The notes beneath the pieces are model-generated. The model did no database searches and was not told where the DNA came from. It saw nothing but the letters and a program-made list of their open reading frames with translations. DNA of 20,000 nt from an uncultured virus (IMG/VR IMGVR_UViG_3300035696_000033) (lineage: Duplodnaviria > Heunggongvirae > Uroviricota > Caudoviricetes): the IMG/VR virus record IMGVR_UViG_3300035696_000033. One strand, 5' to 3'. Position numbers and translations under genes: made by a program. This document shows positions 3,706-19,998 of this stretch, piece by piece; the first letter of the stretch is position 1, and the number at the start of each line of letters is the position of its first letter.

Positions 3706-3789
3706 ATCAAGTGCGGATTGTGGAGTGCGGAGTGCGGAATTAGAAAGCCCGACCCAACCCGATCAAGTGCGGATTGCGGAATAAAGCCC
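3706..3789. repeat. Intergenic heptamer array with 15-bp direct repeat
   Basis: ATCAAGTGCGGATTG occurs at 3706-3720 and 3762-3776. Each copy is followed by GA(G/T)TG(C/T)G units and then ...AAAGCCC. Confidence 0.8.
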
Positions 3790-3811: not shown

Positions 3812-6800
3812 ATGAAATTGATCTATAACAGTTTTGACCTGTCGAGCATCGGCGAGATCGCGGTGAAATGGAACCGGACCTACGAGGGCGGCAATGACGC
3901 GCCGCAGCGCTGCCGGGTGACGGTGGATTGCAGCGTCAAGGTGTTTGAGCGGTCTTATGGCGACAACTACTCGCTGCTGCGCCAGGCGCAGGCGGCGGTG
4001 ATGGCGCCGAACCAGCAACTGACGTGGACGAACGACGAGACGGGCGAGAGCTACATTGACCAGACGGCCGCGCTCACGCGCCAGAATTTCCCGGAGGAAT
4101 GGGGCACCTATTTCCAGCAGCTTGAACTGTCGTTCCAATACTGCGAGAACCTGGACACGTCGGCGCAGAACCTGCTCTGCACATTCACCAAGACGGGTTC
4201 GACCACCCCGCTCCAGTTCGACAACATCACCAAATGGGCGGAGAGCGCCAGCACGAAACGGTTCTCCACGCTGCGGAGCCAGCGGGAGCAGGTGACGGGG
4301 CAGTTGACGGTGGAAGGGCTGCTGCTGGGCGACACGACGCTGCCGCTGGCGGCGCGGCGGGCGGGTCTGGCGCAACTGGTCGCGACCTTCCGCCGCGAAC
4401 TCAACGCCGCCGACGGCAACCTCACCTACGGAGTGCAGGGATCAACGGCCACCCCCACCCCGATGTTCCAAAACGTGGTGCGCATCACATCGTTCGAGGC
4501 GGCGGTGGACCAGTCCATCTGCGCGGTGCCGTTCAAGTTCACCGCGGACTACACGCTGTTCCCGGATGAGACGAACTACGCGACGGTGACGGCGACGGCG
4601 GCGGTGAGGGACCCGCAGACGGGCGAGCTGTTCCTGAACATCAGCGGCAGGATCGAGTCGGCGACGGAGGCGCTGGCGCGCACCAAGCTGGCGGCGGTGG
4701 TCGCCGCGCTCCTGAAAAGCCACGGGTTTGACAAGGGGCAGAAGCTGGAATTCAGCGCGACGCCCAACCTGATCTCGGCCAACGCGGACGGCGACACGTT
4801 CACCGAGCTTTCGTTCACCGGCCAGTGGCGCAAGTGGCGCGCCGGAAACTTCGCGGCGTCCTTCACGCCACCGTCGCCTTCCGGCGGGGCGTTGGAACCG
4901 ATTTCGTTTGGACAGGTCTCGACATGGGAGGAGGGGATCAAGTCCGAGCGGTTTGACCCGATGCGCCCGCAACGGCGGCGCACGGTGGACACCATCACCG
5001 CGACCGGCGTGTTCGTGGGCGACGCGGGGCTGGCGCTGGCCGACCGCAAGAAGCAACTGCTCGCGCGGCAGCGGGCAATGACGGCCGCGTGCAACAACCC
5101 GCAAGGGGTGCTGCAATACGCGGACTGGAGCCAGACCGTGCGCGTGGAGAGTTTCAACGCGAAGATCAACCAGGCCGAGACGGGCATTGAATGGACGCTG
5201 TCGGCCTATTACAACGCCTTTCCGGACGAGGCGGGCTACACGACGGTGGAGGCGACCGCCGAGGAAAAGGACGGCATGACGGGCGAGATGTTCCTGACAT
5301 GCGGCGGGAAGATCCAGGCGGCGAGCGAGGCGGCGGCGCGCACCAAGCTGGGGATTGTCATCACCACATTCCTTGCGCAATACGGCTACACGGGGAGCAG
5401 CGCGCAGAAGATACAATTTGACACGACGCCCAACCTGATTTCCGCCAATGCGGACGGCGACACGTTCACCGAGCTTTCATTCAGCGGCCAGTGGCGCCGC
5501 TGGAAATCCAGCAACCAGCGGGCGGTGTTCACACAGACGGGGCACAAGACGCCGGTGGCGCTGGGCAACGTGCGGACCTGGGATGACGGCTACCGCGCCG
5601 AACGCTTTGACGTGCAGCGCAGCGAGCGGCGGCACGCGACGGGGATGGTGTCGGCCGCCGGCACGTTCTCGGTGGATCCCACGATGGCGATCGCCGACCG
5701 GCGGGCGGCCCTGTTGAAGCAGCAGCGGGCGTTGAAGGCGGAGGTGAACGCGGCGGACGGGACGCTGACGTATGGCGACTGGAGCCAGGTGGTGCGGGTT
5801 GAGGAGTTCAACGCCAAGATCAACCAGGCGGAGACGGGCGTGGACTGGAGCTTCACGGCCAGCTACTCGCTGTTCCCGAACGAGGGCGGCTATGTGACGT
5901 GCGAGTTCAGCGCCGAGGAAAAGGACGACGTGGAGACGGGCGACCAGTTCCTGACGTTTGCGGGGAACATTTCCGCGCCCAACGGATCGCTGGCCCGCGC
6001 CAAGCTCGACTCGCTGCGCGCGGCGACCCTGGGCATTTACGGTTTTACCGCGACGCAGCGCGTGCGCGGCGGCAACGCGACCCATGAAGTTTCCGCCAAC
6101 GGCGACCAGACCGCCGGCGTCCCGGAAGGGATTGAGACGCAGGGAGACGCCACGGGCGTGTCGTTCATCCAACTGTCGTTCTCCGAGGAATACCGCCGCC
6201 GGACGCCGGGGACGGTGGTGAGCAGCAAATACCAGATTGCCTCGCGCGACGACACGGCAAGCGGGCTGGTGCTGACGACCTACTCCGGCAGCGTGACGGC
6301 AACGGGCGCGACGGCGGACGCGGCGCTGGCGGCGGCGGCGGTGCAGGCGCTGCTGCTGGGCGCGAACAAGCAGGGGGCGATTGACAGCACGGCGTTTCTC
6401 AAGAGCCAGCAATGGACGATTGAACGGCGGCAGTTGACCGGCGCAAACCCGGATGAGTTTGTGGCGCTGGCGTTCAGCTACGAATACCAGAGCAAGATGG
6501 CGCCGGGGCGTTCCTATGTGGAGGCGAACACGGCCGCGGCGACCGACGCTTTCGGGCCGGATTCGCAGAACGTCAGCGGTTTTGTGGTGGCGCGCGACGA
6601 GGCCACGGCCACGGCCGTCTATCTGCAGCAGGTGCGCGCGCCCTATGCCGGGATGCTGATCCGCAACGAGACGACGACGTTTCAGCGCGTGCTGGCGGAA
6701 GCGGCGACCGCGACGCCGGCGGTTTACCAGGTGGTGGGATTGGACGGGGCCAACATCCCGCAGAATCCGCAGCCGGGAACGGGCTACACGGCGCAGATGT

Positions 6801-7489
6801 TGCGGCTGGAATTCAGTTTCACCGTGCATTCGGTGAAGCCGGCGGGACGCGTGACGGCGCGTTACTCCATGAGCGTAAGCCGCGATTTTCTGAACCTGAA
6901 GCTGTCCACCCATGTGCGGGGCAGCGTCTGGGCGGCGACGCGGCCGGCGGCGGACGCGCTGCTGCCCGCGCTCTTTGGCACGATGGCGGCCGGGCAACAG
7001 GTGACGGGCGAGCGGAACGAGGACCATGATTATACGCCGGAGTTGAACGCGTTCATCAAGCTGGACTTTGATGACGGCTATGAGGCGGCGCTGACGGGGG
7101 TGACGGGGGTTCTGGAATGCCACGTGACCGAGAGCGTGAAGTTTTCGAGCACGCGCTGGGCGGTGCAGCCGCTGCCCTTTGACAGCAATGGCGCCGGCGG
7201 CGTGAGCATTGTGCAACCCGCGGGCGTTGCGGAGGGCGGCCGCACCGTGCGCGGGACCGTGACTGCGGCGACGCTGGCGGTGGCGCAGGCGTGGGCGTGG
7301 AAACAACAGGCGTTGCTGACGGGCGATGACGACGGGACGTTTGCCCCGCTGCCGCCCGAGGTGGAAAATGACTACGAGTTTGCGCCGCGCGTGAACGGCG
7401 TGGCCAGCGGCGCCGGCCAGAACGTGCGGCTGTTCCGGGTGACCTTCACCTTTGGGGAGATTCTGCCGGATTATCCCGCGCCGGATTGA
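3812..7489 (+). CDS. Putative tail-tip/baseplate structural protein made of tandem Dit/tail-tube-like domains
   Basis: 1225 aa with strong GC3 bias, located after the TMP. The N-terminus resembles siphovirus distal tail proteins (MKLIYNSFDLSSIG...RVTVDCSV...helix...LTWTN...LELSF). There are three clear ~220-aa internal repeats. Confidence is high for the CDS and moderate for the function. Confidence 0.65.
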   Translation: MKLIYNSFDLSSIGEIAVKWNRTYEGGNDAPQRCRVTVDCSVKVFERSYGDNYSLLRQAQAAVMAPNQQLTWTNDETGESYIDQTAALTRQNFPEEWGTYFQQLELSFQYCENLDTSAQNLLCTFTKTGSTTPLQFDNITKWAESASTKRFSTLRSQREQVTGQLTVEGLLLGDTTLPLAARRAGLAQLVATFRRELNAADGNLTYGVQGSTATPTPMFQNVVRITSFEAAVDQSICAVPFKFTADYTLFPDETNYATVTATAAVRDPQTGELFLNISGRIESATEALARTKLAAVVAALLKSHGFDKGQKLEFSATPNLISANADGDTFTELSFTGQWRKWRAGNFAASFTPPSPSGGALEPISFGQVSTWEEGIKSERFDPMRPQRRRTVDTITATGVFVGDAGLALADRKKQLLARQRAMTAACNNPQGVLQYADWSQTVRVESFNAKINQAETGIEWTLSAYYNAFPDEAGYTTVEATAEEKDGMTGEMFLTCGGKIQAASEAAARTKLGIVITTFLAQYGYTGSSAQKIQFDTTPNLISANADGDTFTELSFSGQWRRWKSSNQRAVFTQTGHKTPVALGNVRTWDDGYRAERFDVQRSERRHATGMVSAAGTFSVDPTMAIADRRAALLKQQRALKAEVNAADGTLTYGDWSQVVRVEEFNAKINQAETGVDWSFTASYSLFPNEGGYVTCEFSAEEKDDVETGDQFLTFAGNISAPNGSLARAKLDSLRAATLGIYGFTATQRVRGGNATHEVSANGDQTAGVPEGIETQGDATGVSFIQLSFSEEYRRRTPGTVVSSKYQIASRDDTASGLVLTTYSGSVTATGATADAALAAAAVQALLLGANKQGAIDSTAFLKSQQWTIERRQLTGANPDEFVALAFSYEYQSKMAPGRSYVEANTAAATDAFGPDSQNVSGFVVARDEATATAVYLQQVRAPYAGMLIRNETTTFQRVLAEAATATPAVYQVVGLDGANIPQNPQPGTGYTAQMLRLEFSFTVHSVKPAGRVTARYSMSVSRDFLNLKLSTHVRGSVWAATRPAADALLPALFGTMAAGQQVTGERNEDHDYTPELNAFIKLDFDDGYEAALTGVTGVLECHVTESVKFSSTRWAVQPLPFDSNGAGGVSIVQPAGVAEGGRTVRGTVTAATLAVAQAWAWKQQALLTGDDDGTFAPLPPEVENDYEFAPRVNGVASGAGQNVRLFRVTFTFGEILPDYPAPD
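4150..6211 (+). repeat. Three tandem ~220-codon intragenic repeats
   Basis: TPNLISANADGDTFTELSF.GQWR occurs at ~4759 and ~5425 (666 nt apart, near-identical DNA). DWSQ.VRVE.FNAKINQAETG occurs at 5123 and 5777 (654 nt apart). The junction F-P-D/N-E-x-x-Y recurs at ~4560, ~5220 and ~5875. Confidence 0.9.
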
Positions 7490-7641
7490 GCACCTTGTAA
7501 ATCTTGCCATCCAGACCAATCCATTGCGGCCAGATCGTAGATAAAAATCGGGCCGTTTAATGCGGCGTGAAGCATTTTAGAACTGATGCGTTCCTTGTCT
7601 CGCAACAGCTTCATGGTGTCCCGAACGTGGATGATATTCAT
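7471..7641 (-). CDS. Possible 56-aa hypothetical protein (MNIIHVRDTMKLL...)
   Basis: The ATG lies 8 nt downstream of the helicase stop and the ORF fills the AT-richer gap between the convergent genes. It overlaps the tail gene end by 19 nt and has no recognisable motif. Confidence 0.3.
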   Translation of the reverse strand: MNIIHVRDTMKLLRDKERISSKMLHAALNGPIFIYDLAAMDWSGWQDLQGAQSGAG

Positions 7642-7649
7642 GGTGTAGT

Positions 7650-10600
7650 TTAATTCCGGCGCAAGAATCGTTGACGCCACAGCGGAAGATCGCCGGTAAT
7701 TGCGGAGTGCGGAGCGCGGAGTGCGGAGTGCGCGGGGACGCTCGCCCCACCCTTGACCGACAGGCTGGTCCATTGGAGGAATGCCCTGCCCAGCCCGGCG
7801 CGCAGGCGGGGCCAGCCCTGTTCCAGCTCGTGCTCATCCAGTGTCTTGACGTTCTTGAACTCGCGCTCGGCGATGTGCAGCAGTTCGGCGAGGTTCACCT
7901 CGGCGGGCGTCTCGCCCAGCAGATGACCGTCCAGCACCAACTCGGCGGCGTCCTTCTTCTCGTGGATGCCGCCCTCCAGCTTGCGGTCAATGGAGCCGTC
8001 GCAGATGACGGACCAGACGTTGACCGGCCACGGCGAGTTGATGCGGTGCGCCCGGTTGATGAACTGCTCGAACTTGTCGAACGCCCACGAATAGGCGGTG
8101 AGCAGGACGTTATTGCACAGGTTGAAGCTGTGCAGCTCGGCCATGCACTCCTGACCGGCCAGCAGCACCGGGAACGCGGAGTGCGAAGCGGGAACAAGAC
8201 CTTCGTCCACGGCGCGCGGCGGCCCCTGCTTGAATTGCCGGGCGAGTTCGCCCCGGCGCTTCTGGGAGACGCGGCCGTCCAGGACCAGATGCGGCACACC
8301 GGCCTCCTTGAGGCGGGCGCTGAAGACGTCGAGGCCGTTCTGGAACGCGCTGCCGATGATGACCTGCTCGCGCCGCTCCAGTGCCTGCCGGACGAGTTCC
8401 AGCGCGCTGGCCACCTTGGGGATGTAGGTGAACTTGCTGCGGGGACTGCCGCCGGTGACATCGTGTTCGGGGCGCACCAGCAGTTCGCTGGCGGGGTTGG
8501 CGGCGGCGATGCGCAGCGCCTGCAGCTTCGCGCCGATGGCCGGCCGCATATTGCAGTCCAGATACTTCGCCTTCAAGTGGAACTGATACGCGGCGGCCTG
8601 ATACAGGCCCATCGGCACGCGGACGACGTGGCGGATCTTCGGGACGATCTCCTCGCCGCAATCCTCCTTGCGCCGGCGGAGGATGATTGGGGCGAGCAGT
8701 TTCCATGCGCGATGGACGTTGCAGACCTGCGGGGTGAACTTGACGAACCGGCGGTGCGTGCCGCACGGGCCATCTTTGGCCAGCTCTTCTTTGGTTAAAT
8801 TCCGTTCGCTTACCAAAAACTCCTCGGCGAAGGTTTGCTTGTCGAGCCTGGCATACGGGAAGCGCGGCGTGGGCTCCTCGTGGCCGCCACAGACGTAGTG
8901 CGCCAGATGGAACACATCCGGGAAGCGGTTCTTGATGGGGGTGGCCGTCAGCACCAGGCGGTAGGGGGCGTTGATCTGGCGGACGCCCGTGCCGACGATG
9001 GTGTTGTCGCCCTTGATCCGGGTGCCTTCATCAATGACGCAGACCTCAAAGCAATCCTGGCACAAGTCGGCCAGCGACGGGGAATAGACGCACTTGATGT
9101 TTTGTGTTGCCCCCACAACCCGGCCATCTACCCCGGCGGGGGAGAAGGTGTCCGAAGGACGGTTGAGGGGGCGCGTCTCACCGATGCCGGTGGAAAACTC
9201 ACGGTGCTTGCAGATGGCCAGCTCGGAGCGGATGAACTGCTGCTGCTGTTCGGACAACGCCTCCCACTGATGAATTGCGGATTGCGGATTGCGGATTGCG
9301 GATTGAATCCCGGCGGCATTGAACCGTTTATTGATTGCGGAGTGTGGAGTGCGGAGCGCGGATTCATCCTTGCGTCCGGCGCCGGGTTTGCCGGTGGGGG
9401 TCAGTTGTTCGAGGACGCGGAACGACTCGCGGGCGAGGTCCACGACGACCTTGTCGGCGGTGCGCCGGATGATCTCATAGGCGGCTTGAATTTCTTTCAG
9501 CGTGGCGTCGGGCGTAATTACCAAATGTCCGCCATCACCCCAGCCCGAAAGCCGCGCGTAATGCTGGCCGTAGATATTGCCGCGATTGTTCCACCAGTCC
9601 ACGGCATCCTGCTCCTTCAAGTTGAGCTGCGACAGGGTGCGCTCCGGGTGGAGGCGGTCGAGCGGCGGGAACTCCGCGACGCCGTTGCCGGTGAGCTGGG
9701 TGTAGTTGGTGAGATAATAGTTGGGCGGCAGGCTCATGCGGCCCGTGCGCGGATCGGGTTTGGCGAGGCGGCAGAACACCGACTGGCTGTCGATCCGGAC
9801 GATTGGGATTGCGGATTGCGGATTGCGGATTGCGGAGTTCCCGAAGTGGCGGCGGTATTCATCCTCGGTCTGGTCGTGGCCATCCCCCGGCACGACGAGC
9901 AGGACGGGCCGGGCGGGTTTAACCCCGCACTCCGCACCCTCCATTCCGCACTTGAGGAGCGGCCAGATGAACAGGGCGATGGTCTTGCCCAGCCCGGTGT
10001 CGTGGCCGAGGATGATGCCGTCGTGCATGGCCGCGCGGGCATAATCATCCAACTGAAATTCCTTGAATGCAAAACCGGATCGCGACGCCCGCGCGCCCTC
10101 ACCCCGGCCCTCTCCCGCTCCCGCGAGAGAGGGGGAAAGAAGCCGGGCGATGTCGCGCATGGTCTGGCGGTGCTTCTCGAATTGTTTGGGATTCAGCGCG
10201 GCGACATCCGGGACTTCGGGGATGACGAACGAGTCCGCCAGTTGCTTGAGGGTGAAGTCAATCACACACTCGTCCTCGATGTCCTTTTCCTTGCGGCCGG
10301 TGGTGCCGGGTTTGATGAGGTTGACCTTCACGTTGTCGGCGCGCAGGCGCTCCTCCATGAAGCAGCGTTCCACGCCGCCGTCGTCGGTGATGAAGAAGGC
10401 CAGCTCCTGCCCGTTCCACTCCACGTCGTCCAGCAGGCCGATGGTGTTCATCTTGGTGCCGGTGCGCTTGACGGCCACGGTGGTGGAGCGGATGGGGTAT
10501 TTTCCGCCCCGGCGGAAAACAGTTTCGGATTTCAAATCCGCAACCGGCAATCGCAAATCGGCAATGCAGGTGATGTCGTCCTGTTCGTCGAGGTAGCCGA

Positions 10601-11819
10601 GGCGCTGGATTTTGGGGAGCGGATAGAGCGGCGCGCGGACGTGGTTGTATTCCGCGATGGCCGTCTCGACGGCGCGCATCAGCGCTGGATCCACGCGCCA
10701 GGGTCCTTGCGGACGGCCACCAACCCCCACCGCATTCTCCAGCGCGCGGCGGGTGTTGCGCTGGACCACCAGTTGAATGGGCTGGCGGCCATTGAGGGCA
10801 TGGAGCGACGCGGCGGCGGACTTGTCCACGCGGCCGCTGGCGGTGTCGAACGTGTTCAGGTGGGTGCGGATGACGCCGCGTTCGGTGTCGAACCAGATGT
10901 TGAAGGGCGGCGCCTCGGACAGGCCCTGCTCGCGCTCGTGTTCCTCCCTGGCGGCCCGCCACAGTTCCACGCTGTCGGTGGTCTGCAAATACCGGGCGGC
11001 TTCGGGGCCGTCGCGCAGGGTGTAACGGTTGCGCTTCGCGTCGCGGAGGGAATCTTCAACATCCATTGGGGTTCCAACATCGAACATTTTGGTGAGCTGC
11101 GGGCCGCGATCGTGGCCGCGCGCAAAGTAGATGACGCCGGTGTGGAAGTTTCCGGTTTCCGGCTGGCAGATGTTGCCGGGGATGATGAGGCGCGCCCAGA
11201 TGTGCGCGGCCAGCGCGCGGTGCGGCGCGTTGTCCGCAAAGATGAGCCGTTCCAGGGTTGCATTGTTGGCGATGAGAAAGCCGTCGGTGTAACTGCTGGA
11301 GCGGTCGAGCGCGATGCAGAGCGTGGCGATGGTGGAATCAATGCACTCGCGCGGCGTGCGGCCGTCGTGCGCCGCAAACGCCTCGCGCACGGCGGGGCAT
11401 TCCGAGCCGGCCAGCGCCGACAGGCGATCACGATACCAGTGCAAATCCCACGGCGGGTTCAGCACGAAGCAATCGCACTTCCAGTTTACGGCGCGCAGCT
11501 TGGCGTGGAACCGGGTCACGTCCGCCGTGACGAAGTGAGGAGTGCGGAGTGCGGAGTGCGGAAAAGGTTCGAGGTCGCAGCCGAGCAGGGTTGAGAATTT
11601 CTTGTCGCCGTCCACCTGCGAGCTTCTGGCGCCCCAGAGGAGCGAGCCGTTGCCGCAGGCGAGGTCGGCGATGACGGGGCGGTAATCGTTGAGCGGCAGG
11701 GACAGGATGCGCGCCCATTCGGCTGGCGTGAACCATTGCGCCTGCCCCTTGTCGGCGGCGTTGCTGGCGGAATCGAACAGGGTTTGAACGGCGGTGGGGG
11801 AGATGGAGGATTTGAGCAT
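7650..11819 (-). CDS. N6-adenine-MTase-like domain fused to SNF2-family helicase/ATPase
   Basis: The N-terminus has QWFTP (motif X), DLACGNG (SAM-binding motif I) and NPPW (motif IV). The C-terminal part has GHDTGLGKT (Walker A), VLLVVP (Ia), IDEGTRIK (II), LTATPIKN (III), LRRRKED, and QFINRAHRI (VI). Confidence 0.85.
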   Translation of the reverse strand: MLKSSISPTAVQTLFDSASNAADKGQAQWFTPAEWARILSLPLNDYRPVIADLACGNGSLLWGARSSQVDGDKKFSTLLGCDLEPFPHSALRTPHFVTADVTRFHAKLRAVNWKCDCFVLNPPWDLHWYRDRLSALAGSECPAVREAFAAHDGRTPRECIDSTIATLCIALDRSSSYTDGFLIANNATLERLIFADNAPHRALAAHIWARLIIPGNICQPETGNFHTGVIYFARGHDRGPQLTKMFDVGTPMDVEDSLRDAKRNRYTLRDGPEAARYLQTTDSVELWRAAREEHEREQGLSEAPPFNIWFDTERGVIRTHLNTFDTASGRVDKSAAASLHALNGRQPIQLVVQRNTRRALENAVGVGGRPQGPWRVDPALMRAVETAIAEYNHVRAPLYPLPKIQRLGYLDEQDDITCIADLRLPVADLKSETVFRRGGKYPIRSTTVAVKRTGTKMNTIGLLDDVEWNGQELAFFITDDGGVERCFMEERLRADNVKVNLIKPGTTGRKEKDIEDECVIDFTLKQLADSFVIPEVPDVAALNPKQFEKHRQTMRDIARLLSPSLAGAGEGRGEGARASRSGFAFKEFQLDDYARAAMHDGIILGHDTGLGKTIALFIWPLLKCGMEGAECGVKPARPVLLVVPGDGHDQTEDEYRRHFGNSAIRNPQSAIPIVRIDSQSVFCRLAKPDPRTGRMSLPPNYYLTNYTQLTGNGVAEFPPLDRLHPERTLSQLNLKEQDAVDWWNNRGNIYGQHYARLSGWGDGGHLVITPDATLKEIQAAYEIIRRTADKVVVDLARESFRVLEQLTPTGKPGAGRKDESALRTPHSAINKRFNAAGIQSAIRNPQSAIHQWEALSEQQQQFIRSELAICKHREFSTGIGETRPLNRPSDTFSPAGVDGRVVGATQNIKCVYSPSLADLCQDCFEVCVIDEGTRIKGDNTIVGTGVRQINAPYRLVLTATPIKNRFPDVFHLAHYVCGGHEEPTPRFPYARLDKQTFAEEFLVSERNLTKEELAKDGPCGTHRRFVKFTPQVCNVHRAWKLLAPIILRRRKEDCGEEIVPKIRHVVRVPMGLYQAAAYQFHLKAKYLDCNMRPAIGAKLQALRIAAANPASELLVRPEHDVTGGSPRSKFTYIPKVASALELVRQALERREQVIIGSAFQNGLDVFSARLKEAGVPHLVLDGRVSQKRRGELARQFKQGPPRAVDEGLVPASHSAFPVLLAGQECMAELHSFNLCNNVLLTAYSWAFDKFEQFINRAHRINSPWPVNVWSVICDGSIDRKLEGGIHEKKDAAELVLDGHLLGETPAEVNLAELLHIAEREFKNVKTLDEHELEQGWPRLRAGLGRAFLQWTSLSVKGGASVPAHSALRAPHSAITGDLPLWRQRFLRRN
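7698..7751. repeat. In-frame heptamer array (5 units) fused to a REP-like half palindrome
   Basis: AATTGCG-GAGTGCG-GAGCGCG-GAGTGCG-GAGTGCG followed by CGGGGACGCTCGCCCCACC. It encodes GGASVPAHSALRAPHSAI at the helicase C-terminus. Confidence 0.85.
9126..9170. repeat. REP-like double-hairpin element, in frame
   Basis: The minus strand reads CCCCTCAACCGTCCTTCGGACACCTTCTCCCCCGCCGGGGTAGAT, with a GTCC/GGAC stem and an imperfect second stem. It encodes PLNRPSDTFSPAGVD. Confidence 0.6.
9273..9364. repeat. Two adjacent in-frame heptamer arrays
   Basis: AATTGCG(GATTGCG)3GATTG at 9273-9305 and GATTGCG-GAGTGTG-GAGTGCG-GAGCGCG-GATT at 9333-9364. They encode QSAIRNPQSAI and ESALRTPHSAI. Confidence 0.9.
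9807..9838. repeat. In-frame (GATTGCG)4 array
   Basis: Four perfect copies at 9807-9834, encoding NSAIRNPQSAI. Confidence 0.9.
9922..9953. repeat. Degenerate heptamer array, opposite orientation
   Basis: The minus strand reads AAGTGCG-GAATGGA-GGGTGCG-GAGTGCG, encoding KCGMEGAECG between the Walker A helix and motif Ia. Confidence 0.7.
10096..10133. repeat. REP-like palindromic element copy 1 (CCTCACCCCGGCCCTCTCCC...GAGAGGG), in frame
   Basis: 20 bp (10097-10116) are identical to 19830-19849, with a CCCTCTC/GAGAGGG stem. It encodes PSLAGAGEGRGEG. Confidence 0.85.
10533..10565. repeat. Degenerate heptamer array, opposite orientation
   Basis: CAAATCCG-CAACCGG-CAATCGC-AAATCGG-CAAT, encoding IADLRLPVADL. 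Confidence 0.65.
11533..11563. repeat. In-frame (GAGTGCG)3 array
   Basis: AAGTGAG(GAGTGCG)3GAA, encoding FPHSALRTPHF inside the MTase-like domain just after the GCDLE strand. Confidence 0.85.
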
Positions 11820-11876
11820 AGATTGAACAGGTTTGAGCGGACTCGTCCGCTGCTACGGAATGAAACGGATTCGGAT

Positions 11877-12269
11877 TTATTTTTGACGGCGCAGTTCTTC
11901 GGAGCGAGCCTGGCCGCCGCCACCCGGTTCGAAGCAGCAGACGTTGGTGGGAACGTCCTGTTGCAGGACCCCGCTAATGGTGAACGCCTGCGTCCAGATC
12001 ATGCGCCGATGGCTCCAGTCCAGTTCAATGGCGATGGCGTGGAACGCAAGATGGCGGTTGTGTGGCAGCATCTGACTGACAATGTCGCGCCACGCGCGAA
12101 ACAATTCCGGCGGGGCCGACGGGTAGCTTATGAGGTTGGAGAGGTTGACGCTGGTGATGAGCGCGTGGGTGTCGGTGCTGGTCAGCCCGCCGAGTGAGCG
12201 CGGACCGAGGTTGATCTTGAGCCATGTGAGGATTTCTTTTGGGGATTTCATAAAAATTTCGACAATCAT
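11877..12269 (-). CDS. Hypothetical protein (130 aa)
   Basis: The ATG at 12269 overlaps the upstream stop (ATGA); an alternative start is at 12251. The longer ORF-track version overlaps two real genes. Confidence 0.7.
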   Translation of the reverse strand: MIVEIFMKSPKEILTWLKINLGPRSLGGLTSTDTHALITSVNLSNLISYPSAPPELFRAWRDIVSQMLPHNRHLAFHAIAIELDWSHRRMIWTQAFTISGVLQQDVPTNVCCFEPGGGGQARSEELRRQK

Positions 12270-12457: not shown

Positions 12458-13567
12458 TCAAAGGAGTTGTTCTTCCGGCCGCAAGCAGTGGGGTGAAAAC
12501 CAGATACGCTCGCGACCGGCATTGCTGCGGCCGGTGCCGTGCGACTGGTTGCCGTAGCCGCCGTTGGCCTTCCACGGGACGCAGATCCACGCGCGCGGCA
12601 TCTTGTGTTCGCCCTCATACCCGCACAGGGCGATGCGGAGCCTGGGATTCGCGCCGTTAGCCAGCGCCCACCGCGCAACGTCAGCACCCACTTCAAGGCT
12701 GTCGTGGTTGTAGATAGATGGATCGCGCTGCGCGCCGGCGGAGTATGGCGGGTCGAGAAACACGGCGGTCACACCAATGCAGCTGGTTGGACTTGGGCCA
12801 AGGATGCGCTGCCAGTCGCCACAGCAAACGCGGGCGCGACGCAGCCGGTCGCTCAAGGCCATCATGTATTCCAACAGATTTTTGCTGACGGCCCGTGAAA
12901 GCACCCCGCGGCCACTGCCGCTGCCGCTGCCGGAGAGCTGCGGCAATTGACCGCGAAGGGCGTGGACACCATTGCTTCCGGTCAGGAACGGTCGCGTTTG
13001 CCACTGGCCCATGCGGGAAATGCCGCGTCCACCGCGCTCCAATGATGGACGCTTCTTCCAATTATTGCTGGCAGAAATGTCCCGGGTCCGGGTTAAATTG
13101 GGGCGTTGGTTGTAGGCGTCTGTTTGGATGCCGCGCGATGTCCGGGGCAGGAAGCGCCCCATCCATTCCGGGCGCGAACACCAGCCGGAGCCGATCCACT
13201 GGCTGATTCCCCACACCCACCAGCCGGCTATCCGGGCATCGAAGTAATCTGGATCCCGCATCATGCGCGCGCGGAAATCCGCCTGCTCCACGAGCCAGAG
13301 ATGACGGGCGTGCAAGTCGGCCTCATTCACCGGCCAGTCGGCGTGGCGGGCGACCTGTTCCGGATCTTGCCGGGTGGCGCGCCAGAAGTTGGCGACATAA
13401 CAATCCTTGTCGTTGATGGTTTCGGTGCGCGGCGGATGCGGGCGCGCCAGCAACACCGCGCCGCTGCCGAAGAAAGGTTCGACATAGTTCGGCACGTTGC
13501 CGAAGCGTTGCCAGACCATGTGGGCGCACCGGCTCTTGCCGCCGAACCAGGGGAAGGGGGCTTTCAT
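12458..13567 (-). CDS. D12-class (Dam-like) N6-adenine DNA methyltransferase
   Basis: 369 aa from the ATG at 13567 (ATGA overlap). Motifs PFPWFGGKS, YVEPFFGSGAV, ETINDKD and VFLDPPY are present. Target specificity cannot be inferred. Confidence 0.92.
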   Translation of the reverse strand: MKAPFPWFGGKSRCAHMVWQRFGNVPNYVEPFFGSGAVLLARPHPPRTETINDKDCYVANFWRATRQDPEQVARHADWPVNEADLHARHLWLVEQADFRARMMRDPDYFDARIAGWWVWGISQWIGSGWCSRPEWMGRFLPRTSRGIQTDAYNQRPNLTRTRDISASNNWKKRPSLERGGRGISRMGQWQTRPFLTGSNGVHALRGQLPQLSGSGSGSGRGVLSRAVSKNLLEYMMALSDRLRRARVCCGDWQRILGPSPTSCIGVTAVFLDPPYSAGAQRDPSIYNHDSLEVGADVARWALANGANPRLRIALCGYEGEHKMPRAWICVPWKANGGYGNQSHGTGRSNAGRERIWFSPHCLRPEEQLL

Positions 13568-15396
13568 AGGACTGCGCCGGTGAGGGCGGCGGTGAGTTCG
13601 GTGGGATTGGAGTTGCCGATCTGCTTGACGATCTGGGTCTTGTTGCCGGAGAACTTGTAGCGTTTGGGGAAGCTGTGGGCGGCGGCGAGCTCGCCGGGCT
13701 TGAGCAGCCGGAAATAAATCTCCAGCTCGTGCTGTTCGCTGGTGGCGGGATTGACGAGCAGGAACCGGTCCTTGGTGGTGACCGAATCCAGCGGCTCCTC
13801 CACGCCCTGCGCGGTGGCCGTGCCGTAATACTTGGCGATGAAGGGGCTGACGAGCAGGTGATGCTTGCCGGTGGTGCTGATGGTGGACACGGGGCGGTCC
13901 ACGGATTCGGCGGAGCTGTTCAGGTGTGACGGGCTGGTGCCGCGTTGCTTGACAATGAACGGGTTGATGACGCCCCACTCGCCCTTGGCGGTAGTGGTGG
14001 GCAACGGCTTGTCGGTGTCGGCGGTGCGCAAATCCTTTTTACCGTGCCGCGTGCTGACGAGGAACGGGCGGGCGACGGCGAACTGGTTGCTGGTCTTGAG
14101 GGCGGGCAACGGCTTCTCCGCGCTGATGGCCCGCCGGGAATCGTTCTCGCCGGGTTTGCGGCCGTGCGCAACGCTGACGAGAAACCCGGCGCCGTGTCCG
14201 GCGGTGACGGTGTTCAGCGGTTCGTCCGGAGAGCGGGCGACGTTGCCGCGATGGACGCCCTCATGCGGCAGGATAAAGGACGTGACGAGGCCGCAGTTCT
14301 GCTTGGTGACGCATGTTGGCACCGGTGAATCCACGGAGCGGACGCACTTGCCATTGCCGCCGGTGTTGTCGGTCTGCACCAGGAACGGGGTGGCCAGAGC
14401 GATCGCGCCATCGGTGGCGACGGTGGGCAGCGGCTCGTCGGTGCTGCGCGGTGCGGCGCACGACTGCTGGCCGAGAACGAACGGCGCGCACGGAGTGCCG
14501 CGCCCCACCTTTGAATTGACGACGGCGTGCGACTGTGAGCCGTGAACTGTGGCCAGCGGGGCGTCCACGCTGGCCACGCGGGGCGACTGGCCGGGACGCT
14601 CGCCGAAGTTGGTTGGCACGATGAACGACATGCCGCAGAACTTTTTCAAGCCCGCCTCGATGCGGCGCATGGTGTTGGGCGAGAGCGGTTTTTTGCGGTC
14701 GCTCAAGGCCGTGCCGAGATCGGTCCAGTCAATGATGCTGCGGGCGGTGCGCCAGGGTTTCGCGTGGCCGAAGAGGTCGTTCACGCTTCCGGGGGCGCGA
14801 TGGGTCGGCTCCGGCCAGACGACTTTGAGGGGCTTGCGCCGGGCGATGACGAACAGGCGGTGCCGGCTGGTGGGATCGCCGTAATCGGCGGCGCAAAGGA
14901 CGCGGTAGTCCACGTTGTAATTGCGAGCCTTGAGGCTTTCGATGAAGCACCGGAAGCTTTCGCCGCGCTGCGCCTTGATGGGCAGGCCTTTTTTGTTGAG
15001 GGGCCCCCAGTCCATGAACTCGGGGACGTTTTCGATGATGACGTTTTTGACATAAAGCTTGTCCAGCCACGCGAGGATGTGGTTTGCGCCGCTGCGGGAC
15101 TGGTTCTGACGCGGCTTGCCGCCGCGCGCGCGCGAATGGTGGGTGCATTCCGGAGATGCCCAGAGCAGGTCCAGGCAGCCGGCGGGGACGGCCTCGCACG
15201 GGTCCACGCGCTCGATGCTCTCGCACAGGTGCGTGACGTTGGGGTAATTGGATGAGTGGGTTTCCACCGCGACCGGCCAGTGGTTGATGGCGACTCCGAA
15301 CTTGATGTCGCGCCCGGCGCGATGGGCGGCCTTGACGACGCCGGTAGTCGCGCCGCCGGCGCCGCAATAGAGGTCTGCAAAGGAAAGGGGAGTCAT
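13564..15396 (-). CDS. C5-cytosine DNA methyltransferase with repeat-expanded variable region
   Basis: 610 aa from the ATG at 15396 (ATGA overlap). Motifs: DLYCGAGG (I), WASPECTHHS (IV), IIENVPEF (VI), PTSRHRLF (VIII), RLLKPGELAAAHSFP (IX), KQIGNS (X). Confidence 0.93.
   Translation of the reverse strand: MTPLSFADLYCGAGGATTGVVKAAHRAGRDIKFGVAINHWPVAVETHSSNYPNVTHLCESIERVDPCEAVPAGCLDLLWASPECTHHSRARGGKPRQNQSRSGANHILAWLDKLYVKNVIIENVPEFMDWGPLNKKGLPIKAQRGESFRCFIESLKARNYNVDYRVLCAADYGDPTSRHRLFVIARRKPLKVVWPEPTHRAPGSVNDLFGHAKPWRTARSIIDWTDLGTALSDRKKPLSPNTMRRIEAGLKKFCGMSFIVPTNFGERPGQSPRVASVDAPLATVHGSQSHAVVNSKVGRGTPCAPFVLGQQSCAAPRSTDEPLPTVATDGAIALATPFLVQTDNTGGNGKCVRSVDSPVPTCVTKQNCGLVTSFILPHEGVHRGNVARSPDEPLNTVTAGHGAGFLVSVAHGRKPGENDSRRAISAEKPLPALKTSNQFAVARPFLVSTRHGKKDLRTADTDKPLPTTTAKGEWGVINPFIVKQRGTSPSHLNSSAESVDRPVSTISTTGKHHLLVSPFIAKYYGTATAQGVEEPLDSVTTKDRFLLVNPATSEQHELEIYFRLLKPGELAAAHSFPKRYKFSGNKTQIVKQIGNSNPTELTAALTGAVL
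14482..14509. repeat. REP-like hairpin, in frame in the C5 MTase
   Basis: The minus strand reads GGTGGGGCGCGGCACTCCGTGCGCGCCG: a GTGG foot plus a GGCGCG(G)CAC/GTGCGCGCC stem. It encodes VGRGTPCAP between two variable-region repeats. Confidence 0.7.
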
Positions 15397-16780: not shown

Positions 16781-17955
16781 GATTCCACCCCGGCTGGCGT
16801 GGCTTCCGGTTTGGCTTGGGTGGCCTCCGGTTCGGGGTTGACGGATTCGCTGGAGCGCATCGGCATGATGACGGCCTGCCAGGGCTTGTCCTTGGCCTTG
16901 AGCACGATGGGCGACGACTTGCCAGTGTTGAAGAACAACACCTCGTCGTCGGTGACGGCCTTCAACACCTGGAGGAAGTATCTGGCATTGGCGTTGACGC
17001 TGCCCGCCCGGCAGCGCGGGATGAGCAGGCACTCGGTGGCGTCGCCGGGAACATCCTTGTCCTCGCTCCGGGAACTGACGGTGAGCAACTGCTGGCGGAA
17101 ATCGAAGTTGATGTTGCCGCCGACGAGCGACACGCGCTCGATGACCGCCAGCAGGTCGGCGCGCCCCACGGGGACGCCGTTGCCAGCATCGCGCAGATCG
17201 GGGATGACCTGCCTCCAGTTCGGGTAGTTGCCCTCGATGACCTTGCTGGTGATGACCGTCTCGCCAAAGGCGAAGGAAATGTTGTTGTCGCCGATGGTGA
17301 CGGTGACGTTCGCGTCGCCGTCATCCGCCAGCAGCGGGAGCAGGGTGCTGATGGCGCGACGCGGGATGATGGTCTCGGACTTGGGCAGCTTCTGGCCGAT
17401 GTCCACGGTCATTTCCGCCAGGCGGCGGCCGTCGGTGGCGACGGCGCTGATCTTGCCATTGGTGGCGAGCAACGTGCCGCAGAGGACGTAGCGGCTCTCG
17501 TCGGCATCGTTGCCGGGGTAACTGGTGGTCTGGAGCAGTTCGCGCAGGGTGCGCTGGGGCAGCTTGAACTCCGTGCCATCCTTGATGCGGGGCATCGGCG
17601 GGAACTCCTCCGCGTCAAGGATGCCGAGGTTGTATTTGGCGTCGCCGCAGGTGATGCGCAGCGTGCCCTTGACGAGTTCCAGCCTGATGTCGGCGTCGCC
17701 CTCCTTCTCCGGGAACCGGCTCACGATGCTGTGCAGCAGGCCGGCGCTGACGGTGAGACAGCCCTTCTCCTTCACGCCGGCATCGAGCCGCTCGCGGAGA
17801 TAGAGGTCGAGGTCGGTGCAGACCAGCTCGACGGATTTCTCGAACGTGCGGATGAGGACGTGCGAGAGGATGGGCAGCGTGGTGCGCCCGGAGACGCCGG
17901 CCTTGACGGTGGCCAGCGCCTTGACGAACGATTTTTTGGATACGGTTAGTTTCAT
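16777..17955 (-). CDS. dnaN: DNA polymerase III beta subunit (sliding clamp)
   Basis: 392 aa with RTTLPILSHVLI, TDLD, EEFPPMP, ESRYVLCG, VATDGRRLA, IIPRRA, SKVIEGNYPNWRQVIP and AVIMPMR. Confidence 0.95.
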   Translation of the reverse strand: MKLTVSKKSFVKALATVKAGVSGRTTLPILSHVLIRTFEKSVELVCTDLDLYLRERLDAGVKEKGCLTVSAGLLHSIVSRFPEKEGDADIRLELVKGTLRITCGDAKYNLGILDAEEFPPMPRIKDGTEFKLPQRTLRELLQTTSYPGNDADESRYVLCGTLLATNGKISAVATDGRRLAEMTVDIGQKLPKSETIIPRRAISTLLPLLADDGDANVTVTIGDNNISFAFGETVITSKVIEGNYPNWRQVIPDLRDAGNGVPVGRADLLAVIERVSLVGGNINFDFRQQLLTVSSRSEDKDVPGDATECLLIPRCRAGSVNANARYFLQVLKAVTDDEVLFFNTGKSSPIVLKAKDKPWQAVIMPMRSSESVNPEPEATQAKPEATPAGVES

Positions 17956-17965
17956 TTGGTTATTG

Positions 17966-18002
17966 GGACAGTTTGGTTTTGGCAGTTTGGACAGTTTGGT
18001 TT
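17966..18002. repeat. Short direct repeats in the dnaN leader
   Basis: CAGTTTGG occurs at 17969, 17983 and 17992. GGACAGTTTGGTTT occurs at 17966-17979 and 17989-18002. Confidence 0.7.
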
Positions 18003-19608: not shown

Positions 19609-19796
19609 GGCTGTTTTTTGATGGTGACGATTTCCAGCCAGTCGCGCTTGGGGATGTCGGCTTCGCTGGCGTATTCGCGCCATGTAAAAGCGCCGCGGGC
19701 GGCCTCGCTGGTGGTGCCGCGTCCTGCCGCCAAACCCCAGACGGTGACTTTGGTTTTGGTTTGGACGGCGACTTGGGATTTAGTTTGGTGTTTCAT
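19605..19796 (-). CDS. Hypothetical protein (63 aa)
   Basis: It starts 10 nt after the upstream stop, and its own stop overlaps the next ATG (ATGA). Confidence 0.6.
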   Translation of the reverse strand: MKHQTKSQVAVQTKTKVTVWGLAAGRGTTSEAARGAFTWREYASEADIPKRDWLEIVTIKKQP

Positions 19797-19806
19797 ATAT
19801 CAGATA

Positions 19807-19998
19807 TCAGGCTTCGACGAGTTCGGGCACCTCACCCCGGCCCTCTCCCCATTGCTTCGCGCGGAGAGGGAGCGGAACCGGCCGCAAGATTTCCTCCATG
19901 AGGCCGCTGGCATGGTAGAGTTCCACCAGCGCCGCGCCGTGCTCGGCTGTGGCGCAGCGGTAGGCCTCGATGATGCGGTCGTAGTTGGTTGGTTTTTC
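19807..19998 (-). CDS. 3' end of a hypothetical protein entering from beyond the window
   Basis: Manually translated open frame EKPTNYDRIIEAYRCATAEHGAALVELYHASGLMEEILRPVPLPLRAKQWGEGRGEVPELVEA* with high GC3. Confidence 0.65.
   Translation of the reverse strand, partial: EKPTNYDRIIEAYRCATAEHGAALVELYHASGLMEEILRPVPLPLRAKQWGEGRGEVPELVEA
19830..19870. repeat. REP-like palindromic element copy 2, in frame
   Basis: CCTCACCCCGGCCCTCTCCC is identical to 10097-10116. It has a perfect 8-bp stem CCCTCTCC (19841-48)/GGAGAGGG (19863-70) and encodes ...WGEGRGE. Confidence 0.85.

What the first reader, a model, noticed from the sequence alone, without database searches (positions are those of the whole stretch)
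7698..11563. MTase-SNF2 gene carries about ten frame-preserving repeat insertions
Seen: repeat-derived segments at 7698-7751, ~8171-8193 (degenerate), 9126-9170, 9273-9305, 9333-9364, 9807-9838, 9922-9953, 10096-10133, 10533-10565 and 11533-11563. They come from at least four sequence families, and the heptamers occur in both orientations. The 1389-codon frame stays open and every insert falls between conserved motifs rather than in one. I saw no comparable inserts in dnaN, the N6 MTase or the TMP. Known: palindromic elements can insert in frame into genes (Rickettsia RPEs). Inference: this gene is an insertion hotspot, or a tolerant sink under purifying selection, for a host repeat-spreading mechanism that writes new loop peptides (SAIRNPQSAI, SALRTPHS, GEGRGE) into a phage enzyme.
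Basis: partly seen in the sequence, partly recalled or inferred. Interest (0 to 1): 0.8.

Follow-up and report, generated by a model that had tools for sequence, protein, structure and literature searches.

The report
Phage helicase loops overwritten by repeats
A phage gene for a predicted DNA methylase-helicase stays readable from end to end while carrying twelve tiny repeats of kinds found in its likely host bacteria, and related phages fill the same protein loops with different repeats, so these loops are likely overwritten again and again by host mobile DNA.

Summary
Confirmed and extended. All ten repeats lie in frame in the 1389-codon MTase-SNF2 gene, and two more were missed (11148-11165, 10704-10721). 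Six of the ten are bridged by independent contigs; a ~99% identical strain differs by +21 and +6 nt. Core dN/dS is about 0.2.
The repeats match host-type families: heptamer arms of four-helix-bundle genes, the palindrome beside DUF559 genes, a GTAG-like repeat and an 18-mer. They are often not clean inserts: two are length-neutral and sit in well-ordered loops.
Homologs fill the same loops with other families (30 of 35 repeat peptides fall at this gene's sites, 23% of its length). A tail protein with similar indel tolerance carries none above background.
Best reading: host repeats are copied in, kept only in frame in surface loops, eroded by slippage and overwritten by newcomers; the peptides are passengers and the mobilising enzyme is unknown.
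Intragenic repeats biased to DNA-repair genes are in print, and this scan noted heptamer-filled loops on other DNA before. New here: a phage gene, at least seven repeat kinds, serial overwriting at fixed sites.

The parts
7650..11819 (-). Host gene of the repeats: N-terminal N6-MTase-like domain fused to a SNF2 ATPase, 1389 aa, intact
   Evidence: PF00176 E 1e-17 over cut-off; PF02384 20.0 bits, just under 20.4; Rad54 top hit
11533..11563 (-). S1: CCGCACT heptamer array (FPHSALRTPH); loop length kept, five other units in homologs
11148..11165 (-). S11 (new): eroded heptamer array QPETGN; run X1 has +21 nt; at least 7 other repeat-like peptides here in homologs
10704..10721 (-). S12 (new): sharply bounded 18-nt dispersed element read as GGRPQG
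10533..10565 (-). S2: left arm plus stump of the right arm of an inverted heptamer mini-element; P0001 has 7 more residues in the right arm
   Evidence: same unit arms a four-helix gene in L141
10086..10143 (-). S3: CCCTCACCCC..CCCTCTCCC palindrome family (core 10096-10133; GEGRGEG); +19 aa; empty allele in run X1 differs by net 57 nt
9922..9953 (-). S4: AGTGCGG array in the opposite orientation, length-neutral; several homologs hold the 18-nt element here (VLADGH)
9807..9838 (-). S5: CCGCAAT array (SAIRNPQSAI), +10 aa; three close relatives have three other repeats behind EYRRHF and before PI(V/T)R
9333..9364 (-). S6a: CCGCACT array (SALRTPHSAI)
9273..9305 (-). S6b: CCGCAAT array (QSAIRNPQSAI)
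9120..9175 (-). S7: second palindrome-like family (core 9126-9170; PLNRPSDTFSP), +22 aa; rare in the MAGs searched
8171..8193 (-). S8: eroded CCGCACT array, +1 aa; run X1 has +6 nt
7698..7752 (-). S9: composite, GTAG-like element (7729-7752) abutting a CCGCACT array (7698-7732)
14483..14509 (-). GTAG-like insert in the C5-methylase gene (VGRGTPCAP), +10 aa against L009
18876..18911 (-). CCGCAAT array at the start of the ligase-like gene; L009 has a CAGCCTT array at the same place
3707..3742 (+). Intergenic AGTGCGG array upstream of the tail gene; L009 has an AAGGCTG array there
19828..19875 (+). Intergenic CCCTCACC-family palindrome

Best explanation
The gene is an open, conserved phage gene for a predicted methylase-SNF2 enzyme whose variable loops hold short repeats of host-type families that were likely copied in from the host genome and likely overwrite one another at the same sites over time. 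Steps: (1) Source, shown by match: the units arm host four-helix-bundle genes, the CCCTCACC palindrome flanks host DUF559 genes, and the GTAG-like and 18-nt elements are dispersed in Verrucomicrobiota MAGs. (2) Transfer in trans during lysogeny or infection: inferred; no enzyme identified, and none of three candidates is on the phage contig. (3) Filter, shown: every event keeps the frame and avoids motifs, and the core is under purifying selection. (4) Erosion by slippage in 3n steps: differences of 21 and 6 nt shown between strains, direction inferred. (5) Re-occupation: different families at the same sites shown; that an old repeat or its stump attracts the next one is inferred. The peptides are most likely neutral passengers.
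For: Same loop, different families. S1 holds six units at nearly constant length, 20-22 aa. S11 holds at least 7 repeat-like peptides in 28 homologs and S5 holds 4 within one clade. 30 of 35 detected peptides in 27 close homologs fall at this gene's 11 site windows, 23.5% of its length (P~1e-14, relatives not independent). Phage L009 carries 11 detected elements in the same gene and other families at the same four outside places: upstream of the tail gene, upstream of TMP, ligase start, TMP N-terminal region. Host link: arrays on both sides of 14 of 30 and 6 of 20 four-helix genes, either side 22 of 30 and 11 of 20, background 0.12/kb. AGTGCGG arm in L185, CAATCGG arms in L141. Palindrome beside 7 of 9 DUF559 genes, 22-115 copies per MAG. 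Composites of two families abut at S9 and in L009, P0002, L119. Tail family: 2 hits in 54,523 aa (reversed control 4) against 35 in 34,017 aa, 22 of them from host-derived heptamers alone. Yet its indel rate is similar (6.3 vs 9.0 per 1000 aa at 45-60% identity) and its dN/dS is higher in the one paired phage (0.50 vs 0.37).
Against: No insertion intermediate, target-site duplication or full cassette was seen in the gene. The families go with different host genes, so one mechanism is not shown. The GTAG-like element was not beside Y1 transposase genes (1 weak match in 20 loci). The S7 family had only 4 matches in 8 MAGs. Exact AGTGCGG trimers were in 4 of 151 genomes, and the true host is unidentified. 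Family-wide DNA enrichment is modest (0.42 vs 0.15 per kb in 11 close loci, dominated by L009; 0.21 vs 0.08 in 76 far loci), and 14 of 27 close homologs have no detected peptide. Tail homologs are not paired to the same phages except in two cases. The palindrome peptides were picked from this family, so that part is circular. The 18-mer peptide test did not discriminate (28 look-alike hits in the tail family). Clustering in a few loops is also expected from tolerance alone. The tree is a quick, unfinished search.
Confidence: 0.6

Rival explanations
1. Tolerant sink only: elements land at random, selection removes all but those in the few loops of a low-expression accessory enzyme, and turnover merely looks like overwriting.
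For: Larger inserts lie in low-pLDDT coil. Small genes of the same leftward operon also carry elements, many in L009. Host RimO and MutL carry several arrays in linkers.
Against: The tail protein has as many indel-tolerant bins (30 of 61 vs 28 of 64) and no repeats. Density in the gene (7 in 4.2 kb) exceeds intergenic density (6 in about 8.5 kb). Two replacements sit in ordered loops. Loop length and flanks stay while the unit changes.
Confidence: 0.22
2. Cis-targeting: DNA-processing enzymes such as this SNF2 translocase act on their own gene while being made and create the breaks or single strands that capture repeats.
For: The coding hits in this phage are mostly DNA enzymes (SNF2, C5 methylase, ligase-like). 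Di Nocera 2013 (PMC3733652) reports the same unexplained bias to uvrA, uvrD, polA, recBCD, dnaE2. Host MutL holds three arrays.
Against: dnaN (0 in 10 homologs, 11 kb) and the D12 methylase are clean, while TMP, RimO and membrane proteins are hit. No direct test was possible.
Confidence: 0.08
3. Adaptive diversification: the loop peptides are selected, for example to evade a host sensor or tune activity.
For: Hypervariable loops on a conserved core. PMC3733652 speculates that inserts modify repair proteins.
Against: Peptides differ freely in chemistry and orientation, erode in 3n steps and are absent from many homologs. The same units sit in intergenic DNA.
Confidence: 0.06
4. De novo origin by local slippage and homogenisation, with no import from the host.
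For: Slippage-sized changes of 21 nt are seen. MacGregor 2015 relays the proposal that heptamers arise from polymerase slippage (PMC4679880).
Against: Units recur at distant loops in both orientations and match arms of host cassettes. The palindromes and the 18-mer are not tandem and occur as exact copies in MAGs.
Confidence: 0.03
5. Assembly artefact: high-copy host repeats were merged into the phage contig.
For: The repeats reach summed depths in the thousands in the runs. Four sites are not bridged by a listed contig.
Against: Six of ten sites are bridged. All twelve keep the frame. S2 and S12 are shared with separately assembled homologs.
Confidence: 0.01

Closest known systems
Intragenic GTAG/CGTC REPs in DNA synthesis and repair genes (Di Nocera et al. 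2013, PMC3733652; passages and sections 15, 17 part 1 read)
   Same: [quoted passage not shown]
   Different: There one or two inserts per cellular gene, otherwise at different sites. Here twelve in one phage gene, mostly heptamer arrays, at fixed sites with changing family.
Rickettsia palindromic elements (as summarised in PMC10969869; passage read)
   Same: In-frame, translated repeats said to be compatible with the fold.
   Different: RPEs are ~150-bp palindromes in unrelated metabolic genes. These are 18-65 nt, of several unrelated families, in a phage, and often replace rather than add sequence.
Bacterial tandem heptamer repeats: Geobacter four-heptamer elements (PMC2700814), Xanthomonas/Nostoc (PMC4692102), Beggiatoaceae (PMC4679880); passages read. 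Cyanobacterial STRRs in frame in nifJ are recalled, no call.
   Same: [quoted passage not shown]
   Different: In the passages read they are treated as regulatory or unexplained, one unit per study; no phage case and no serial replacement by other units.
Small dispersed repeats (SDR), seen only as a one-sentence mention in PMC2884548; that paper also describes in-frame 'segment replacement' loci
   Same: ~20-nt possibly mobile repeats (like S12); replacement commoner than simple insertion.
   Different: No sequence link tested; replacing segments there are not assigned to repeat families in the passages read.

Membership tests
SNF2 ATPase | SNF2-related domain and SF2 motifs | tested here: met
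   PF00176 64.4 bits vs cut-off 24.9; motifs located; model pLDDT 86.8 matches Rad54, E 3e-18, TMq 0.43
N6-adenine methyltransferase domain | Profile match and SAM-binding and NPPW motifs | tested here: inconclusive
   PF02384 20.0 bits vs cut-off 20.4; phrog_6380 E 8e-5; LACGNG and NPPW present; no PDB sequence match; domain not folded
Rickettsia palindromic element | ~150-bp palindrome encoding a conserved peptide | tested here: not met
   Elements are 18-65 nt and mostly tandem; folding not above shuffles
Rickettsia palindromic element | In-frame insertion compatible with the fold | tested here: met
GTAG-tagged REP (S9 part, C5-methylase insert) | GTAG tag before a short stem | tested here: inconclusive
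   Tag reads GTGG; a 6-9 bp stem is predicted but is not significant; L009 flank copies read GGTAGGG or GGTGGGG
GTAG-tagged REP (S9 part, C5-methylase insert) | Multicopy in host genomes | tested here: met
   S9 part: 21 copies in G005, 4 in G003, 0 in three others; C5-methylase insert not counted
GTAG-tagged REP (S9 part, C5-methylase insert) | Flanking a RAYT (Y1) transposase gene | tested here: not met
   1 weak match (4 mismatches) in 20 loci, 20 of 34 Y1 matches examined
Heptamer arms of four-helix-bundle (PF05635) genes | Same unit arms a PF05635 gene | tested here: met
   AGTGCGG upstream in L185; CAATCGG both sides in L141; the CCGCAAT unit was not seen as an arm in the 50 loci
Heptamer arms of four-helix-bundle (PF05635) genes | Complete cassette (gene between inverted arms) in the phage | tested here: not met
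   No PF05635 on G000, a record estimated 57% complete; only single arms and one eroded gene-less hairpin (S2)
MITE | Terminal inverted repeats and target-site duplication | tested here: not met
   Empty vs filled S3 and S7 show loss of about 2 native codons and no duplication; the comparators are diverged
Intein or self-splicing insert | Removal from RNA or protein | not testable with these tools
   No RNA run listed; no Rfam match in 7400-12200; far too short for an intein (established knowledge)

The most novel reading that the evidence does not exclude
Repeat-rich bacteria run a repeat-to-repeat replacement system: small cassette proteins (four-helix-bundle, DUF559) recognise an existing repeat or its stump, whatever its family, and write their own arm over it. 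A site once hit stays a landing pad, in phage as in host, and long-lived DNA-enzyme genes become recording tapes of the hosts a phage has passed through.
Probability: 0.22. Interest if true: 0.85.

Novelty: new variant of a known kind. Interest (0 to 1): 0.57.

Why it matters
How heptamer arrays and similar micro-repeats spread, and why they collect in DNA-repair and replication genes, is open (PMC4692102, PMC3733652). This gene family is a compact test bed. It has about a dozen fixed sites, over 100 alleles, empty and filled states, strain-level changes and a neighbouring control gene, all on a phage genome that moves between hosts. It shows that phage enzymes take up host repeat-derived peptides and that such loops turn over by replacement. 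The repeats may also serve as host-range fingerprints for uncultured phages.

Tried and rejected
Single-sequence AlphaFold of the SNF2 half was useless (pLDDT 35); the N-terminal 539 aa, holding S1, S2, S11 and S12, was never folded. The first viral scan with the single protein found nothing. Loose patterns for two further palindrome families gave chance hits and were tightened or dropped; the GTAG1 hit at contig 63818 was judged false and left out of the count of 7. The two L046 rows came from off-frame ORFs and were dropped; many L098 and L046 rows are unrelated ORFs and were ignored. Hairpin stability was not above shuffles for any of 6 segments. No PF05635, DUF559, Y1 transposase or resolvase was found on G000, which may be incomplete; L009 has a serine recombinase. 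A GTAG-like stretch at 11836-11858 had 0 matches in 8 MAGs. The 18-mer peptide test was not specific. No Rfam match. No RNA holder listed. Three G001 and three G003 regions fetched around CCGCAAT arrays showed no obvious four-helix ORF by eye. The careful tree did not finish. Ten literature searches listed no paper on multi-family overwriting in a phage gene or on heptamer arms of four-helix genes; the library lacks most subscription papers, and supplements (e.g. Additional file 3 of PMC3733652) were not opened. PMC3711429 was irrelevant.

Full report
SETTING. The window is the last 20 kb of a 72.6-kb linear virus record, estimated 57% complete. ORF 7650-11819(-) encodes 1389 aa: an N6-methylase-like N-terminus (PF02384 just under cut-off) and a SNF2 ATPase (PF00176 over cut-off). 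A model of residues 540-1389, built on 108 sequences, has mean pLDDT 86.8 and matches Rad54 best. Of 22 genome loci holding relatives, 18 are titled Verrucomicrobia or families thereof, so the host is likely a verrucomicrobium (inference). The runs that hold the gene are peat metagenomes.

OBSERVATION. All ten segments exist and keep the frame. Period-7 arrays number 11 in the contig against 0.03 expected in coding shuffles. Contigs from public runs bridge six of the ten sites; four were not bridged in the listed rows. Run X1 holds a ~99% identical strain with 21 more nt at 11148 and 6 more at 8184, both in frame. It also holds a related contig with an empty S3, net 57 nt shorter. X1 may be the source sample. 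Two further sites emerged: S11 (11148-11165) and S12 (10704-10721). S12 is an 18-nt element with sharp edges in unrelated flanks, with 11 copies in G003, 16 in G004, one each in two more and none in four of 8 MAGs. That makes twelve sites of at least seven kinds: the CCGCACT, CCGCAAT and CAATCGG/AAATCGG heptamers, two palindrome-like families, a GTAG-like element and the 18-mer.

NOT CLEAN INSERTS. Against 17 full-length homologs only S3, S5 and S7 are clear gains (+19, +10, +22 aa over the mode); S4 is +0, S8 +1, S1 -1, S11 -4. At S3 and S7 about two native codons are missing and no target duplication is visible. In the model S3, S5, S6, S7 and S9 have blocks of pLDDT 42-74, whereas S4 and S8 lie at 90-94.

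THE SAME LOOPS, OTHER REPEATS. At S1 the window, L001, L006, L009 and L015 have loops of 20-22 aa made of different heptamer arrays. At S11 at least seven different repeat-like peptides occur among 28 homologs. At S5 four members of the window's clade share the left flank EYRRHF and a PI(V/T)R right flank but hold four different repeats. At S4 several homologs hold the 18-mer instead (L001, L004, L019). Of 35 repeat peptides detected in 27 close homologs, 30 map to this gene's 11 site windows, 23.5% of its length. P0001 keeps a full inverted mini-element at S2, seven residues longer than the window's. Phage L009 has 11 detected elements in the same gene and 16 in 19.8 kb outside it. It has other families at four homologous outside places, and at its TMP site a palindrome follows what looks like a stump of the window's heptamer (the TMP alignment there is weak).

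IS THE GENE SPECIAL? In the window's phage one detector finds 7 elements in this gene (4.2 kb), 3 in the other ~60 kb of coding DNA and 6 in ~8.5 kb intergenic (gene calls are my own codon model). Across 87 non-redundant loci the in-gene excess is only about 2.6-fold and load varies from 0 to 11. The 1225-aa tail protein is the control: 2 peptide hits in 45 proteins (reversed control 4), against 35 in 27 close SNF2 homologs (reversed 4) and 35 in 80 far ones (reversed 19). It tolerates indels about as well and has the higher dN/dS in the one paired phage (0.50 vs 0.37). Core dN/dS of the SNF2 gene is 0.14-0.24 in six of seven usable pairs. The 27 X1 differences I took from the 40 rows shown (99 were not shown) fall in 21 synonymous and 4 non-synonymous codons. 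So relaxed selection or general indel tolerance does not explain the excess, though an expression or assembly cost on virion proteins could (inference).

WHERE THE REPEATS COME FROM. In eight Verrucomicrobiota MAGs, PF05635 four-helix-bundle genes have heptamer arrays within about 300 nt on both sides in 14 of 30 and 6 of 20 loci, and on either side in 22 of 30 and 11 of 20. The arms are inverted and each cassette has its own unit; background is 0.12/kb (30 of 44 and 20 of 20 matches examined). The AGTGCGG and CAATCGG units of the phage gene occur as such arms (L185, L141). The S3 palindrome lies beside 7 of 9 DUF559 genes and has 22-115 copies per MAG. The GTAG-like part of S9 has 21 copies in one MAG but was not beside Y1 transposases. 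The S7 family is rare in the MAGs searched. Host RimO and MutL genes carry several arrays in frame too. None of the three candidate mobilisers is on the phage record.

MECHANISM. Shown: match to host families, frame and motif avoidance, purifying selection, 3n strain differences, family exchange at fixed sites. Inferred: copying in trans while the phage is in the host (L009 encodes a serine recombinase), erosion by slippage in steps of three heptamers, and attraction of new elements to old repeats. Composites support the last step (S9; the 18-mer inside a GGATGTT array in four G004 copies, though these share flanks and may be one composite element). Tolerance alone also predicts clustering, so I give the overwriting model 0.6 and the pure sink 0.22. 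The peptides are most likely neutral.

WHAT IS KNOWN. In-frame repeats are known from Rickettsia (PMC10969869, passage). Intragenic REPs biased to DNA synthesis and repair genes, highest for GTAG in Opitutus terrae, are in PMC3733652 (sections 15, 17 part 1), which also notes different REPs at about the same site in two recB genes and otherwise different sites. Heptamer arrays inside genes are in PMC2700814, PMC4692102 and PMC4679880 (passages), with no mechanism. In-frame segment replacement as a common kind of variation is in PMC2884548 (passages). Ten searches listed no account of several repeat families replacing one another in a phage gene. Unchecked notes of this scan describe heptamer arms of four-helix genes and repeat-filled loops in other genomes, none for this locus; they are leads, not support.

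VERDICT. Real, not an artefact, and a new variant of a known kind. It works like intragenic REP or RPE insertion, is not a member of RPE or MITE, and adds serial, multi-family overwriting of fixed loops in a phage enzyme. Interest 0.57.

Noticed in passing
window 10704-10721; G003, G004; L007, L019, L042, L052: A sharply bounded 18-19 nt non-palindromic dispersed element, found in 16 phage-related loci at up to 5 places each and inside this gene family at several loops in both orientations (GGRPQG, SLRTAT, VLADGH). Several G003 copies sit in T-rich intergenic DNA, so a promoter or operator role in prophages is not excluded.
   Followed up: partly
window 11598-11624, 11076-11093, 9525-9551, 8760-8786: Four more short stretches that look like eroded repeats or small gains (+9 aa at 9525-9551, +5 aa at 8760-8786); P0001 has a heptamer array at the first, L009 a palindrome at the third.
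   Followed up: no
window 3707-3742; contig 51607-51635; L009 17464, 23696: Arrays just upstream of start codons are in the purine-rich orientation, like upstream arms of four-helix genes; in L009 one ends a few bases before the ATG.
   Followed up: partly
window 3760-3782: A second short heptamer stump lies between the 3707 array and the tail-gene start.
   Followed up: no
P0008 and P0012, S6 loop: Both carry a ~70-aa insert of ordinary-looking protein at the S6b loop, like a small domain.
   Followed up: no
window 12458-15396: A D12-class adenine methylase and a C5 cytosine methylase with internal repeats lie upstream of the MTase-SNF2 gene, giving three methylases in one operon; the D12 gene has a SGSGSG hexamer run at 12906-12932.
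   Followed up: no
window 3812-7489: The 1225-aa tail-side protein has ~220-aa internal repeats whose number varies among homologs (709-1640 aa) and no Pfam or PHROG match.
   Followed up: no
L010-L042, L098 and other loci: Many relatives encode the methylase and SNF2 halves as separate ORFs, split near residue 580 where S3 lies.
   Followed up: no
L173 (G049:C30): A gene-less inverted AGTGCGG/CCGCACT hairpin follows a gene that looks by eye like a phage capsid gene.
   Followed up: no
window 17955-18002 and 19740-19788: Other short tandem repeats (periods 23 and 24) in intergenic or terminal DNA.
   Followed up: no
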